A stretch of 64,000 bases of DNA, taken from NCBI RefSeq assembly GCF_000026545.1, contig NC_011601.1; one strand, 5' to 3'. This DNA is from Escherichia coli O127:H6 str. E2348/69. Its GTDB lineage: Bacteria > Pseudomonadota > Gammaproteobacteria > Enterobacterales > Enterobacteriaceae. Below the pieces are notes generated by a model. It worked only from the letters and a program-made list of their open reading frames with translations. It did not search any database and had not been told where the DNA came from. Of this stretch, positions 25,990 through 30,310 are shown one piece after another. The translations under genes were made by a program, and so were the position numbers. Within the stretch, counting starts at the first letter, position 1. Each line of letters begins with the position of its first letter.

Positions 25990-26113
25990 CATCTCTCTGT
26001 GCGCAGTACTTCCTGTATTATTGTGGTGGCGGTCGATATTCGCACTGGCAAAAAAACGTGCTTGAATATTTGTTGAAACCCTTTAACAAAGCACAGGAGG
26101 CGTTGCGCGAACG

Positions 26114-26521
26114 ATGAACATTAGCGATGTAGCAAAAATTACCGGCCTGACCAGCAAAGCCATTCGCTTCTATGAAGAGAAGGGGCTGGTGACGCCGCCG
26201 ATGCGCAGCGAAAACGGTTATCGCACCTACACGCAGCAGCATCTCAACGAACTGACCTTACTGCGCCAGGCACGCCAGGTGGGCTTTAACCTGGAGGAGA
26301 GCGGCGAACTGGTGAATCTGTTTAACGATCCGCAGCGTCACAGCGCCGACGTCAAACGTCGTACGCTGGAGAAAGTAGCGGAGATCGAACAGCATATCGA
26401 AGAACTGCAATCCATGCGTAACCAGCTGCTGGCGCTGGCGAATGCCTGTCCCGGTGATGACAGCGCCGACTGCCCGATTATCGAAAATCTCTCCGGCTGC
26501 TGTCATCATCGGGCGGGGTGA
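26114..26521 (+). CDS. cueR: Copper-responsive MerR-family regulator CueR, 135 aa
   Basis: ORF track; N-terminal MerR HTH ([25 protein letters not shown]) and C-terminal CxxxxxxxC metal site. Confidence 0.95.
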
Positions 26522-27252
26522 TTAAGGCTTGCGAAAATAGTCGTCCATTATTTTCGTCAGCTCCGGACGTTCCCCGTCATCATTGATGGCAAAATCCAGA
26601 AAAAAAGCATCTGCTTGCGGCGTTCGGTTTTGCGCCATCAACCGGAAGGTGAGGGGGCCTGACCAGGTTTCGGATGGGCTGATGTGCTTATCAGGGCCGA
26701 AACTCTCCCATGCGTTGGGCGGTAATGTTTTGCACGCGGTGAGTTTTGGTATGTGGTATTGCAGCTCTGTTTTGTGCAGACATTCCCCGCCAGGAAATAC
26801 CAGGGTTTGTTGCTCATCATTAAAATGGGTTGCCGTGCTGAGCACCAGTGTTTTGAGCGGTCGCCCTTCCAGCGCGGCGGCAGTAGCCTTATGGTGTCCG
26901 TCGAGCAGAACGCAGAGATAGGAATCAGGGAGATACCAGGCCAGAGCGCGGGCGATTCCAGTTTTCGAGAGCAGACAAAAACCGGGCGGCTCCCTGTTCA
27001 TCCTCCGCAAAACCGCTGTAGACAAATTCCGCACAGGTAGGGCAATCAGCCTCGGACCAGAAACGTATTAACGGGACATCCTTGCCAGCAGAGCGAATGG
27101 ATAAGACCGTGCGAGTGCGGATCGTAAATCACACATTGACGCAGAAATCCTTTCCCGGACTTCACCGAAAAAATGACGCCCGCAGCGGTATTTTTCAGCA
27201 GACGTACTTCAGGTTTTCGAAAGGGGAAAAAGCATGGCCACTCCTTAGCCAA
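26522..27252 (-). pseudogene. Hypothetical accessory gene of about 240 codons, split by an apparent frameshift near 27046-27068
   Basis: Two adjacent minus-strand ORFs (27046..27252 and 26522..27034) in different frames; the downstream frame stays open up to 27067; no family confidently recognised; stop abuts cueR stop. Confidence 0.45.
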
Positions 27253-27323: not shown

Positions 27324-27530
27324 TTACCCATTAATCCCCGTTTGCACCGAAAGAATATGCTGCAAACTTTCTACCATTATGCGCCCCGACTGAAATAAGC
27401 CTTCCTGGATTTCGTTGTTAACATTCACAGCGTGAACCAGGGAGGCTAATAACACCACTTGCAAGAAGGCAAAAATAAACGCACCGATAATCATAATATG
27501 CGTCAGGGGGATTTTCCTTTGCTCCTTCAT
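27324..27530 (-). CDS. Small single-pass membrane protein (68 aa), hypothetical
   Basis: ORF track; one hydrophobic helix IIGAFIFAFLQVVLLASLV; start overlaps the stop of the upstream lipoprotein gene by 4 bp. Confidence 0.5.
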   Translation of the reverse strand: MKEQRKIPLTHIMIIGAFIFAFLQVVLLASLVHAVNVNNEIQEGLFQSGRIMVESLQHILSVQTGING

Positions 27531-27949
27531 TTTAAATAACCCACAAACTGGCCTTCTTTCATTAAGGCGACTTTTCCTGTGTGATGATAAACAATGACAT
27601 TATACAGACCCGACTGATAAACAGTAGCATCTTTATTGTCTTCATCAATTACACATAATGAATCATTGAGATAAGCAAAGTTCTTACTGCTCATTCTAAA
27701 GGTCATGCCAAATCCTTTATAAATGGCTTTCTTTGCCGCCTGGGCATGTTGTGCGGCTTCTGCATTTTTAAATGCCTGCGCCTCGGATGCACTTAAAATA
27801 GCCGTCTGACGCTGTTGTTCTGCGAGGTAACAGGTGTCATGGCTGACGCCCTGCGCCTGGCAATCTGCGATGCGGGAAGTGGGTGAACTACAGCCAGCCA
27901 GTAATATAACCGCCAGCAGGGAAAACGATTTAATGGAGCTATTCATCAT
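27527..27949 (-). CDS. Predicted lipoprotein (140 aa), hypothetical
   Basis: ORF track; signal peptide with lipobox LLAGC followed by S at +2; not a K-12 core protein I recognise. Confidence 0.6.
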   Translation of the reverse strand: MMNSSIKSFSLLAVILLAGCSSPTSRIADCQAQGVSHDTCYLAEQQRQTAILSASEAQAFKNAEAAQHAQAAKKAIYKGFGMTFRMSSKNFAYLNDSLCVIDEDNKDATVYQSGLYNVIVYHHTGKVALMKEGQFVGYLK

Positions 27950-28002
27950 TGTTAACCTTAAATAATGTGCGGAAAATTGCGAATAAGAAATTGCTGTTAA
28001 AA

Positions 28003-29019
28003 TTAGAACGAATATCCCACGCCGACACCCGCACCGAAATCAGATTGTGTATCCGCAGAAATACCTGCTTTAAGTACCGTATGCGTTCCGGCATTAAAAG
28101 ATGTTCCGACAGACACCGCAGATTCACCGTTAAAGGTTCCCGCTCCCGCTGAGACCATCATCAAGTCACCGGTTTTCACCTGTGGTTGTGAGGCGATAGC
28201 GATGGCAGATGCAGTTCCCGCATTGGCTTCTTTACGATTGTCCTCAACTTCGTTTTTTAGCGAACTGAAATGGTTATTGAGCGTGTTAATTTGCTGGCTG
28301 TTATCTGCAACCCGTTTTTGGGTGTTGGTTAACTGTTGCTGCGTTTGTGCGGAATCTTGTCTCAGACTTTCAATTTGCTCATGTGCCTGGACAGACTTCT
28401 GCGCCAGACTTTGCATTTGTTTATCGTATTGAGCCCTTTCTTTTTGCTGTTGTGCTGCCACATCGGTTGTCAGTGCATTCATTTTCTGCCCTTGTTCCGT
28501 GGTAGTGCGCTGATTAGCCTCATTTTGAGCCGCCAGCCTGGCATTAATCATCTCCTGATAATGCGCGGTATTTTGCGTATCTCCAGTCGCGGCGAGCGTT
28601 TTTTGTGTGGCTACGATCTGCGCCTGTTGCTCTGTAATTTGCGTTTGCTGGGCATCAGTTACCGTAGACTGTCGGGCGTTGATCATGCTCTGATAACGGG
28701 CGGTTGTCTGTACATCACCTGTAGCGGCAACGGTTTTTTGTCCTGCGTCAGGATCTGTCTGGACAGGGGGAGTCTGAGTGGTATCAGGTGTTTCAGAAGG
28801 GATGTAGTGATGTTCAGTCAAATAGGTATATGCAGCGGGGCTGTTGTCGGTGCGTTCTAAAAAGCGGGTAATCTTCTGCTCAATCTCCGATTGCGACATG
28901 CCCGAGTTAATGGCTGAAAGCTCTGTTGCCGCCGCTTCAATGGTATCACCAGCTAAAACAAAAGGGCTGGATGTTGCTGAAATTATGAGTGCCAGTAAAG
29001 CTACGTTTACAGTTTTCAT
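28003..29019 (-). CDS. Short trimeric-autotransporter-like protein with YadA-type C-terminal membrane anchor (338 aa)
   Basis: ORF track; N-terminal signal peptide, Q/T/A-rich coiled-coil repeats, C-terminus ...GESAVSVGTSFNAG...GAGVGVGYSF resembling the YadA anchor and ending in an aromatic residue. Confidence 0.7.
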   Translation of the reverse strand: MKTVNVALLALIISATSSPFVLAGDTIEAAATELSAINSGMSQSEIEQKITRFLERTDNSPAAYTYLTEHHYIPSETPDTTQTPPVQTDPDAGQKTVAATGDVQTTARYQSMINARQSTVTDAQQTQITEQQAQIVATQKTLAATGDTQNTAHYQEMINARLAAQNEANQRTTTEQGQKMNALTTDVAAQQQKERAQYDKQMQSLAQKSVQAHEQIESLRQDSAQTQQQLTNTQKRVADNSQQINTLNNHFSSLKNEVEDNRKEANAGTASAIAIASQPQVKTGDLMMVSAGAGTFNGESAVSVGTSFNAGTHTVLKAGISADTQSDFGAGVGVGYSF

Positions 29020-29386
29020 TCATTTTCTCTCGATCAAAATAAGTTGCATTAATGTTTCTATAAGAAACAAATAATATTGTTATTAAGAAATAAAATACGT
29101 TGCAATATGATCGAAATCTACGCCGCCATTTGTGTGATGTAAAGCGCATTTTTGTCTGTTGTAAGCGTAAATATCACCAATAAGAAACAAAAAATGTTTC
29201 TTTTATAAATTAAAAAGGAAAACATTTCGTGCTCTTTCAATGTAAAAAAGAGTAAAGACTTGTTTTGATAAGCGAAATAAATTCTGTTTCTGGACTAAAC
29301 GTGAACCGGTTCCTGATGTGTGCTAAAATGCGTTTCTTTGATAAATCTCAATTTTTAAGAGGTTTACGCCAGGCAGGAACATTTAA

Positions 29387-29749
29387 ATGAATGAATTTGA
29401 GAAGATTTTTAATGAAATGAATCTGGACCGGGCATTGCTACCGATCCTTTTTCGTTCGAACCGGTCAACAGTGTGGAAGTATTTAAGCGGCGATAGTACG
29501 GCTCCTGCCTCAGCTATGTCACTGATTATGCTGTTGCAGTTAATCCAGAAACGAAACCCCGATCTATTAGCCGAATGGTTAACGCTTTCTGATTTCACCA
29601 TTCCGCCAGAAGTTTACCTGGACCAGCCTGATTACTGGAAAGGGTGGGTGTATACCCAACACAAGGTCAATAAAAACGTCCTGGAATATCTAAAAAAACA
29701 TTATCCGGATGAAGACCAAAAAAGTATGGGTAAAGGCCGGGAAGAGTAA
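29387..29749 (+). CDS. Putative HTH DNA-binding regulator (120 aa), hypothetical
   Basis: ORF track; HTH-like segment RSNRSTVWKYLSGDSTAP; divergent from the autotransporter-like gene across a 370-bp AT-rich region. Confidence 0.45.
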   Translation: MNEFEKIFNEMNLDRALLPILFRSNRSTVWKYLSGDSTAPASAMSLIMLLQLIQKRNPDLLAEWLTLSDFTIPPEVYLDQPDYWKGWVYTQHKVNKNVLEYLKKHYPDEDQKSMGKGREE

Positions 29750-29851: not shown

Positions 29852-30310
29852 TCAGGCGATGACCGCACGGATAATCAGCGTTATTCCTTCTATCGCAATC
29901 ACCTCAACATGCGTACCAGCGCCGAGATCCTCGCTGGCGCTGACAGGCCATGAACTGTCACCGACGCGCATATGACCGCGCCCGTTGACCAGCGGAGATT
30001 CCAGAACAAAACGTTGGCCAATCAACTGCTGCCCGCGCTGGTTTAAATGACTGTCGCTGTGCTTTTGTTCGCGCACCCGCCGCGACAACCATTTCCACCA
30101 CAGCCAGGCGGCGAGCAGCGTCAGGACGGCAAACATTACCCCTTGCCACTCCCAACCCAGCGGCAGCAACCAGACCACCAGACCGGTAATCACCGCTGCC
30201 ACGCCGCTCCACAACAGATAACCATTGCCGCCCAACATCTCGGCTGCCAGCAGCAAACCGCCGAGACTTAGCCAGAAAATATGTTGATGGACGACCATTA
30301 ACTCCATCAT
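29852..30310 (-). CDS. ybbJ: NfeD-like inner membrane protein YbbJ, 152 aa
   Basis: ORF track; overlaps qmcA stop; conserved NfeD-SPFH pair. Confidence 0.85.

What the first reader, a model, noticed from the sequence alone, without database searches (positions are those of the whole stretch)
27324..27949. Translationally coupled lipoprotein and small membrane protein downstream of the autotransporter-like gene
A 140-aa predicted lipoprotein (lipobox LLAGC) and a 68-aa single-helix protein overlap by 4 bp and sit 54 bp downstream of the autotransporter-like gene on the same strand, suggesting one operon. In Salmonella the SadA autotransporter is assisted by the lipoprotein SadB, so these may be dedicated export or assembly partners, though the gene order differs.
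Basis: inference. Interest (0 to 1): 0.6.

Follow-up and report, generated by a model that had tools for sequence, protein, structure and literature searches.

The report
Adhesin-linked lipoprotein pair in O-island 29
Two small envelope-protein genes, one for an outer-membrane lipoprotein and one for a tiny inner-membrane protein, sit directly behind a short trimeric adhesin gene in E. coli; the lipoprotein belongs to an undescribed family that follows such adhesin genes in many enterobacteria, so it may be a new kind of adhesin helper, but this has not been tested.

Summary

Both small genes are under purifying selection and occur in about 26% of complete E. coli genomes. The lipoprotein matches no Pfam, NCBIfam, PHROG or PADLOC family and shows no sequence or fold similarity to SadB or TpgA. 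Its model is a helix followed by a small 8-stranded beta-barrel.

In 17 of 27 enterobacterial species the lipoprotein gene lies just downstream of a YadA-anchor gene, in different chromosomal contexts. This supports a functional partnership. The other 10 species have it alone. The 68-aa partner is limited to Escherichia and Pseudocitrobacter.

Best reading (about 0.4): a third, unrelated class of TAA accessory lipoprotein, on the periplasmic side of the outer membrane. Interest is moderate.

The parts
29387..29749 (+). [not shown]
   Evidence: The published z0640 deletion primers map here. It co-occurs with the TAA-lipoprotein unit in 12 loci. The AF2 model (pLDDT 83, all-helical) has its best PDB matches among XRE-HTH domains: HigA2, P2 C repressor, Aca2 and C.Esp1396I. 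These matches are weak (E about 0.2-5). Pfam gives MqsA HTH at E=0.12.
29115..29143 (-). Sigma-70-like promoter match about 100 nt upstream of the TAA start
   Evidence: Consensus scan, 9 of 12 matches. The number of sites in the region is no higher than in shuffles, so this is only a candidate.
28003..29019 (-). [not shown]
   Evidence: Pfam YadA_anchor E=1.6e-11. Matches the AtaA and Hia translocator domains in the PDB. PHROG 'adhesin' E=5.8e-23. RefSeq names it 'YadA C-terminal domain-containing protein'. The homology arms of the gmrA-03 deletion primers map at 27965-28002 and 29020-29058, flanking exactly this ORF.
27950..28002 (-). 53-bp TAA-lipoprotein spacer with an AAGG Shine-Dalgarno sequence
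   Evidence: No promoter-like site. RNA folding is no better than shuffles (z=0.09). The one terminator-like hit is weak and overlaps the TAA stop codon.
27527..27949 (-). [not shown]
   Evidence: ORF and lipobox. Family alignment with invariant C20 and conserved C30 and C40. AF2 model with helix 37-69 and strands 75-139 at pLDDT above 90. No Pfam or NCBIfam family. z0638 primer mapping. dN/dS 0.01-0.06.
27324..27530 (-). 68-aa bitopic membrane protein whose start overlaps the lipoprotein stop by 4 bp (ATGA)
   Evidence: ORF, hydrophobic helix and overlap. Intact orthologues in E. coli, E. marmotae, E. whittamii and Pseudocitrobacter. dN/dS 0.05-0.4. No Pfam, NCBIfam, PHROG or PADLOC match.
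27235..27251 (-). Weak terminator-like hairpin with a T-rich tail about 75 nt after the 68-aa gene
   Evidence: Pattern scan. The folding energy is not better than shuffles, so this is a candidate only.
26522..27201 (-). Frameshifted remnant of a fifth same-strand gene, which is intact (407 aa) in some E. coli
   Evidence: RefSeq lists a pseudogene, 'hypothetical protein, frameshifted'. An intact 407-aa version follows the 68-aa gene in L061 and L062. It has no Pfam or NCBIfam match and is absent from O157:H7.

Best explanation
The two ORFs are real genes and form the distal part of a TAA operon inside O-island 29. The island is laid out as an HTH regulator gene facing the TAA, lipoprotein and 68-aa genes.

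The lipoprotein is made with a Sec signal and lipidated at Cys20. Because it has Ser, not Asp, at +2, the Lol pathway should send it to the inner leaflet of the outer membrane. I infer that it acts there as an accessory partner of its cognate short, head-less TAA. The short disulfide-looped module would hold it close to the membrane. The conserved Q/A-rich helix and the small 8-stranded beta-barrel would face the periplasmic side of the 12-stranded TAA anchor, or its assembly intermediate. The effect would be to stabilise, tether or assist the adhesin.

This role is analogous to TpgA, whose gene also lies downstream of its TAA, and to SadB. The protein is unrelated to both in sequence and fold.

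The 68-aa inner-membrane protein (N-terminus in the cytoplasm, about 35-aa helical periplasmic tail) is a lineage-specific, translationally coupled add-on. It is not a core component.

- **Shown here:** the genes, the lipobox, conservation, synteny with TAAs, and lack of homology to known helpers.
- **Inferred:** outer-membrane location, physical contact with the TAA, and a helper function.
For: - **Real genes.** Both show purifying selection and a conserved 4-bp overlap, and 1416 of 5426 E. coli genomes carry them.
- **Operon-like layout.** Same strand, 53-bp gap, no terminator. The literature reports the OI-29 genes as co-regulated.
- **Conserved linkage.**
  - 17 of 27 species have an intact YadA-anchor gene directly upstream, in different genomic neighbourhoods: cueR-ybbJ in Escherichia, thiM in Enterobacter, and a recombinase island in Pseudocitrobacter.
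  - Metagenomic loci L064 and L065 add further cases.
  - Degraded versions in L012 and L029 keep TAA remnants beside lipoprotein-domain genes.
  - The linked state is spread across the whole lipoprotein tree, and the distance matrices correlate.
- **What varies and what does not.** In E. coli the TAA passenger varies greatly between alleles (338 to 577 aa) while the C-terminal part, the lipoprotein and the small ORF stay conserved. Any contact would therefore be with the anchor or stalk end.
- **Precedent.** TpgA binds the periplasmic face of the AtaA anchor as an A3B3 complex. SadB assists SadA.
- **Why it could have been missed.** A 2026 global survey of TAA neighbours required a YadA head domain, so it would have excluded these head-less TAAs.
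Against: - 10 of 27 species have the lipoprotein with no adjacent TAA. K. aerogenes keeps it alone at the thiM site where Enterobacter has TAA plus lipoprotein.
- In EHEC, gmrA (the TAA gene) alone complemented the island deletion for motility. The z0638 deletion also removes the start codon of the small ORF, and it had no motility phenotype. Deleting OI-29 did not change adherence to HeLa or Caco-2 cells. The lipoprotein is therefore not needed for the only phenotype reported for the TAA.
- Related phage-borne TAAs exist, yet no phage genome encodes the lipoprotein.
- The downstream partner is not conserved. It is a membrane protein in Escherichia, an unrelated soluble protein of about 75 aa in Rahnella and Serratia, and absent elsewhere.
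- There is no structural or sequence link to any known chaperone or assembly factor.
Confidence: 0.4

Rival explanations
1. The lipoprotein works independently in the periplasm and merely travels with the TAA on the same small island. For example, it could be a protective binder or inhibitor such as the MliC/PliC/ACP lysozyme inhibitors, which are also small lipoproteins with 8-stranded barrels.
For: - 10 of 27 species have the gene alone, in core-like chromosomal contexts.
- The C-domain also occurs as a free-standing secreted protein.
Against: - There is no Pfam MliC or PliC match even at E up to 10.
- Tight same-strand linkage to TAAs persists across lipoproteins only 40-50% identical and in different genomic sites. 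Hitch-hiking alone explains this poorly.
Confidence: 0.2
2. The lipoprotein and the 68-aa inner-membrane protein together form a two-component complex that spans the envelope from inner to outer membrane, in the manner of a spanin or a Tol-Pal-like tether. Their function would be their own, and the TAA only an operon neighbour.
For: - The genes overlap by 4 bp, which implies coupled translation.
- Predicted topologies are complementary: an outer-membrane lipoprotein and an inner-membrane protein with a helical periplasmic tail.
- Both are conserved together in Escherichia and Pseudocitrobacter.
Against: - The small membrane protein is absent from 22 of the 27 species loci that carry the full-length lipoprotein.
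- In five Rahnella and Serratia-type loci it is replaced by an unrelated soluble protein with no signal peptide.
- The only spanin signal is a PHROG Rz-like hit at E=0.028, limited to the signal-peptide region.
- The lipoprotein has no phage homologues.
Confidence: 0.12
3. The lipoprotein is exposed on the cell surface and acts outside the cell together with the TAA, as a co-adhesin or immune-evasion factor. Neisseria surface lipoproteins with 8-stranded barrels (NHBA, fHbp, TbpB lobes, ACP) would be the model.
For: - The island is enriched in pathogenic E. coli lineages according to the OI-29 paper.
Against: - No Slam-like or other surface-lipoprotein exporter is present in the island.
- The lipoprotein is 97-99% conserved while the surface-exposed TAA passenger is hypervariable. 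This is the pattern expected for a protein that is not exposed.
- The fold matches are generic.
Confidence: 0.08
4. The lipoprotein is a diverged SadB/YajI-family export factor, which is the strict form of the first reader's analogy.
For: It shares only a coarse architecture with SadB: lipid anchor, helix and beta-domain.
Against: - No sequence similarity to any named family.
- The beta-domain is an 8-stranded barrel of about 65 aa, against a MATH-like sandwich of about 120 aa in SadB.
- Position +2 is Ser, against Asp in SadB.
- The gene lies downstream of its TAA, not upstream.
Confidence: 0.02

Closest known systems
TpgA of Acinetobacter sp. Tol 5 (partner of the TAA AtaA)
   Same: The gene lies immediately downstream of its TAA gene. 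It is a periplasmic protein acting at the inner face of the outer membrane, and it is a partner dedicated to a TAA.
   Different: TpgA has a BamE-like N-domain and an OmpA-like peptidoglycan-binding C-domain. The protein here has neither. It has a Cys-loop module, a Q/A-rich helix and an 8-stranded barrel. No complex with its TAA has been shown.
SadB of Salmonella (helper of the TAA SadA) and its paralogue YajI
   Same: It is an enterobacterial lipoprotein encoded next to a TAA. Its coarse layout is lipid anchor, helix and beta-domain.
   Different: [quoted passage not shown] The protein here has Ser at +2, a helix of about 33 aa and a barrel of about 65 aa, and its gene is downstream. No sequence or fold match was found.
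[quoted passage not shown]
   Same: An autotransporter adhesin gene shares an operon with a small lipoprotein gene and further small genes of unknown function (abstract of PMC7023056).
   Different: RadD is a monomeric type Va autotransporter in a different phylum. No homology was tested or expected.
MliC/PliC/ACP lysozyme-inhibitor lipoproteins
   Different: Identity is only 7-13%. There is no Pfam MliC or PliC match. These proteins lack the N-terminal Cys-loop and helix, and they are not linked to TAAs.
Braun lipoprotein Lpp
   Same: It is a small outer-membrane lipoprotein with an alanine- and glutamine-rich helix and a C-terminal Lys. In the family here, 76 of 99 members end in Lys and 53 of 99 end in aromatic-x-K. 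There is a weak NCBIfam 'Ala_zip_lipo' hit at E=0.03.
   Different: The hit is far below the curated cut-off. The protein here has an extra beta-barrel domain. Attachment to peptidoglycan is entirely untested.

Membership tests
Bacterial lipoprotein (Lgt/LspA substrate) | N-terminal signal peptide ending in a lipobox [LVI][ASTVI][GAS]C | tested here: met
   The sequence MMNSSIKSFSLLAVILLAG|C has a Cys that is invariant in 21 of 21 homologues. Some RefSeq records name it 'lipoprotein'.
Bacterial lipoprotein (Lgt/LspA substrate) | Actual lipid modification and globomycin-sensitive processing | not testable with these tools
   This needs palmitate labelling, globomycin treatment or mass spectrometry.
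SadB/YajI TAA-export lipoproteins | Sequence or fold homology to the SadB/YajI C-domain (MATH-like beta-sandwich) | tested here: not met
   [not shown]
SadB/YajI TAA-export lipoproteins | Inner-membrane retention signal (Asp at +2) | tested here: not met
   Positions +2 and +3 are Ser-Ser. SadB has Asp at +2 and fractionates with the inner membrane.
SadB/YajI TAA-export lipoproteins | Gene immediately upstream of its TAA in one operon | tested here: not met
   The gene is downstream of the TAA in all 17 linked loci.
SadB/YajI TAA-export lipoproteins | Homotrimer held by an N-terminal coiled coil | not testable with these tools
   Only a monomer model was possible. The helix at 37-69 has moderate to low pLDDT, and its conserved A/Q face (A59, A63, Q67, Q70) is only suggestive.
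SadB/YajI TAA-export lipoproteins | Co-expression improves TAA integrity or surface display | not testable with these tools
   This needs an experiment. Published z0638 and OI-29 deletions were scored only for motility and adherence.
TpgA-type TAA partners | BamE-like N-domain and OmpA-like peptidoglycan-binding C-domain | tested here: not met
   [not shown]
TpgA-type TAA partners | Gene directly downstream of the TAA gene | tested here: met
   The gap is 53 bp here and -38 to 468 nt in 16 loci.
TpgA-type TAA partners | Stable complex with the TAA transmembrane domain | not testable with these tools
   No multimer prediction or coordinate output was available. This needs a pull-down or a structure.
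MliC/PliC lysozyme inhibitors | Match to the MliC or PliC sequence family | tested here: not met
   [not shown]
MliC/PliC lysozyme inhibitors | 8-stranded antiparallel beta-barrel | tested here: met
   [not shown]
Phage spanins (Rz/Rz1) | Homology to spanin families, or a phage lysis-cassette context | tested here: not met
   The only hit is PHROG Rz-like at E=0.028, covering residues 11-27 (the signal peptide). There are no tblastn hits in 50,697 phage genomes and no lysis genes nearby.
Trimeric autotransporter adhesin (the upstream neighbour) | C-terminal YadA-type 4-strand anchor plus an N-terminal signal peptide | tested here: met
   Pfam YadA_anchor at 1.6e-11. PDB AtaA and Hia anchors at 4e-7 to 1e-5. 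The N-terminus is MKTVNVALLALIISATSSPFVLA.

The most novel reading that the evidence does not exclude
Probability: 0.06. Interest if true: 0.8.

Novelty: new variant of a known kind. Interest (0 to 1): 0.5.

Why it matters
Only two TAA accessory proteins are known, SadB and TpgA. A 2026 global survey of TAA neighbourhoods reported no further candidates, but it considered only TAAs with a YadA head domain.

A conserved, unannotated lipoprotein family that follows short head-less TAAs across Enterobacterales would be a third kind of helper. It would also give a handle on how minimal TAAs are stabilised in the envelope.

The locus is present in about a quarter of E. coli genomes, including EHEC O157:H7, EPEC, and APEC/NMEC and ST95-type strains. 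Its central gene is treated in the literature as a cytoplasmic transcription factor, although its sequence is that of an outer-membrane adhesin. Clarifying the module would therefore also correct the functional picture of O-island 29.

Tried and rejected
**Family and homology searches**
- Pfam, NCBIfam, PHROG and PADLOC scans of both small proteins found nothing above threshold.
- The weak TraV (E=0.0013), XAC1346 'secretion chaperone' (0.0016) and Lpp-type (0.03) NCBIfam hits are far below their cut-offs and cover the signal peptide and Cys-loop. A literature search for XAC1346 found nothing.
- PDB sequence search found nothing meaningful.
- tblastn against phage genomes found no hit. Against plasmids it found essentially only mislabelled chromosomes and C-domain fragments.

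**Leads that did not hold up**
- Large proteins with repeated matches to the C-domain (P0160, P0183, P0185) are Cys-rich repeat surface proteins that share only a hairpin-like motif. I did not treat them as informative.
- A terminator or promoter between the TAA and lipoprotein genes: none was convincing.

**Not attempted**
- I considered a linker-fused AF2 prediction of a TAA-lipoprotein complex. I dropped it because the tool returns no coordinates or PAE, so an interface could not be assessed.

Full report
**1. What is in the sequence**

The window is 100% identical to EPEC O127:H6 strain E2348/69. The finding lies in an island of about 3.3 kb between cueR (26114-26521, +) and ybbJ (29852-30310, -). 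The minus strand carries three genes in order:

- **TAA, 28003-29019 (338 aa).** It has a signal peptide, a coiled-coil-rich passenger and a YadA-type anchor. Pfam gives PF03895 at E=1.6e-11. The anchor matches the AtaA and Hia translocator domains.
- **Lipoprotein, 27527-27949 (140 aa).** It starts 53 bp after the TAA stop. Its lipobox is LAG|C and positions +2 and +3 are Ser-Ser.
- **Small protein, 27324-27530 (68 aa).** It overlaps the lipoprotein gene by ATGA. It has a basic N-terminus, one hydrophobic helix and a C-terminal tail of about 35 aa.

The 53-bp spacer has no promoter-like site and no convincing terminator. Co-transcription is therefore plausible but unproven.

**2. Are the two small ORFs real genes?**

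Yes.

- The lipobox Cys is invariant across the family.
- dN/dS is 0.01-0.06 for the lipoprotein and 0.05-0.4 for the 68-aa ORF within Escherichia.
- The 4-bp overlap and the membrane-protein character persist in Pseudocitrobacter at only 36-40% identity.
- DNA of the pair is present in 1416 of 5426 complete E. coli genomes. The TAA is present in 1382. All copies are chromosomal.

**3. Link to the literature**

The island is O-island 29 (OI-29) of EHEC O157:H7 EDL933 (Yang et al. 2018, PMC5826968). I mapped that paper's deletion primers onto the window and onto an O157:H7 genome:

| Published name | Gene in the window |
|---|---|
| z0638 | the lipoprotein |
| z0639, 'gmrA' | the 338-aa YadA-anchor ORF (E2348/69 primer arms at 27965-28002 and 29020-29058) |
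| z0640 | the divergent 120-aa gene |

The paper describes all three as hypothetical proteins. It reports the following:

- Deleting OI-29 does not change adherence to HeLa or Caco-2 cells.
- Deleting z0638 or z0640 does not affect motility.
- gmrA alone restores motility to the island deletion.

The 67/68-aa ORF is not among the three genes the paper lists for the island. The published z0638 deletion also removes its start codon.

**4. What the lipoprotein is**

It has no Pfam, NCBIfam, PHROG or PADLOC family and no PDB sequence relative. The family is small: 152 representatives at 50% identity among 1.8 billion proteins. It is almost confined to Enterobacterales.

The alignment and the AF2 model show four parts:

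1. Signal peptide and lipobox.
2. A module of about 25 aa with two conserved cysteines, of the form C-x-A-x-G-[VI]-S-x-D-[TA]-C-Y.
3. A Q/A-rich helix (about residues 37-69) with one conserved face.
4. An 8-stranded beta-domain (residues 75-139, pLDDT above 90).

The N-module and the beta-domain also occur separately. The N-module alone forms lipoproteins of about 65 aa in Buttiauxella, Aeromonas, Pseudomonas and others. In Citrobacter and Symbiopectobacterium the two parts are split into adjacent genes.

**5. Genomic association**

A scan of one genome per species gave 51 loci. Of these, 27 encode a full-length homologue. I built an HMM for the YadA anchor. With it, 17 of the 27 have an intact anchor-bearing ORF upstream on the same strand, and in 16 the gap is between -38 and 468 nt. 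TAA lengths range from 221 to 728 aa.

The chromosomal contexts differ:

- cueR-ybbJ in Escherichia.
- thiM/thiD in Enterobacter.
- A serine-recombinase island in Pseudocitrobacter.

Further evidence points the same way:

- Two degraded loci (Pantoea sp. IMH, Symbiopectobacterium) keep anchor-less TAA remnants beside lipoprotein-domain genes.
- Metagenomic loci L064 and L065 add two more linked cases.
- Lelliottia has a variant with the same N-module but a different C-domain, and it is also TAA-linked.
- On a lipoprotein NJ tree the TAA-linked state is spread throughout, and solo genes are nested within it.
- Lipoprotein and TAA C-terminal distances correlate (Mantel r=0.50, p about 2e-4). This shows co-inheritance, not necessarily physical contact.
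- A homologue of the 120-aa divergent gene accompanies the unit in 12 loci. Its model resembles XRE-type HTH domains, although the scores are weak.

**6. What is not conserved**

- The 68-aa membrane protein occurs only in Escherichia and Pseudocitrobacter.
- Five Rahnella, Serratia or Enterobacterales loci carry an unrelated soluble protein of about 75 aa at the same 4-bp-overlap position. Other loci have nothing there.
- Ten of 27 species have the lipoprotein without an adjacent TAA. K. aerogenes keeps it alone at the thiM site, where Enterobacter asburiae has TAA plus lipoprotein.
- Within E. coli the TAA passenger is hypervariable (alleles of 338, 436, 457, 471, 497 and 577 aa; about 50% overall identity). 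The lipoprotein and small ORF stay 96-100% identical among the E. coli strains compared.

**7. Mechanism**

The best-supported reading is as follows. The lipoprotein is sorted to the outer membrane and faces the periplasm. It acts as an accessory partner of the conserved C-terminal (anchor) end of its cognate short TAA, stabilising, tethering or assisting it.

This parallels TpgA, whose gene also lies downstream of its TAA and which forms an A3B3 complex with the AtaA anchor. It also parallels SadB.

The genes, lipobox, conservation, synteny and lack of homology to known helpers are shown. Outer-membrane location follows from the +2 rule, which is established knowledge of Lol sorting. Contact with the TAA and a helper function are inferences from guilt by association. 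I give about 0.4 to this reading as a whole, and above 0.8 to the narrower claim of a real, conserved TAA-linked gene pair.

The main evidence against it is the solo occurrences, the variable third gene, and the published result that the TAA gene alone complements the only phenotype known for the island.

Four rivals are scored in the report:

- An independent periplasmic protector with an MliC/PliC-like fold.
- A lipoprotein plus inner-membrane-protein pair that spans the envelope.
- A surface-exposed co-factor.
- True SadB homology, which is effectively excluded.

**8. Novelty**

If the helper reading holds, this is a new variant of a known kind: a TAA accessory lipoprotein with an unrelated fold. 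If it does not hold, the pair remains a conserved but ordinary island gene pair of unknown function.

**9. An unexplained feature**

Among family members whose C-domain reaches the end of the protein, 76 of 99 end in Lys and 53 of 99 end in aromatic-x-Lys. This recalls the YRK terminus of Lpp, which is cross-linked to peptidoglycan. I treat it only as the basis of the low-probability novel case.

Noticed in passing
[not shown]
   Followed up: partly
window 27527-27530; L057 3695-3698: The published z0638 deletion in EDL933 removes the start codon of the unannotated 67-aa ORF, so it is effectively a double knockout. It still showed no motility phenotype.
   Followed up: yes
[not shown]
   Followed up: partly
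window 28003-29019; loci L058, L059, L061: The TAA passenger is hypervariable between E. coli strains at the same locus (338 to 577 aa; about 50% overall identity). The C-terminal part and the two downstream genes are nearly invariant.
   Followed up: partly
window 26522-27201 (-); L061 7079-8302: The frameshifted 'hypothetical protein' after the 68-aa gene is the remnant of a 407-aa same-strand ORF that is intact in some E. coli and absent from O157:H7. It has no family match.
   Followed up: partly
lipoprotein C-terminus, window 27527-27535; family-wide: The C-terminal residue is Lys in 76 of 99 family members, and 53 of 99 end in aromatic-x-Lys, reminiscent of the peptidoglycan-linked YRK end of Lpp. 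The short N-module-only lipoproteins also mostly end in Lys.
   Followed up: partly
loci L030-L056 (Buttiauxella, Aeromonas, Pseudomonas, Atlantibacter, Skermanella and others): The N-terminal Cys-loop module (GCSSPAQRMADCQAQGISKDTCYLAEQNRQ...) exists on its own as an unannotated mini-lipoprotein of about 65 aa. It is found widely in Gammaproteobacteria and some Alphaproteobacteria and is not linked to TAAs.
   Followed up: no
loci L013, L016, L018, L023, L024: In Rahnella, Serratia and related loci the gene that overlaps the lipoprotein stop by 4 bp (5-nt gap in Serratia silvae L023) encodes an unrelated soluble protein of about 75 aa (MKKHHTDQFKHLPPEQQ...) with no signal peptide and no family match.
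   Followed up: no
loci L029, L050, L053, L012: Split or degraded versions exist. In some, the N-module lipoprotein and the beta-domain protein (with its own signal peptide) are adjacent genes. L012 and L029 keep anchor-less TAA passenger remnants.
   Followed up: partly
window about 26020-26117 (+): RefSeq annotates a 98-bp frameshifted gene fragment between ybaT and cueR. At this position O157:H7 and other strains carry a type I secretion system and a giant RTX-like adhesin cluster ending at cueR.
   Followed up: no
locus L017: A contig labelled 'Chryseobacterium sp. 18061' carries an Enterobacter-like locus with the lipoprotein. This is probably a mislabelled or contaminated assembly.
   Followed up: no
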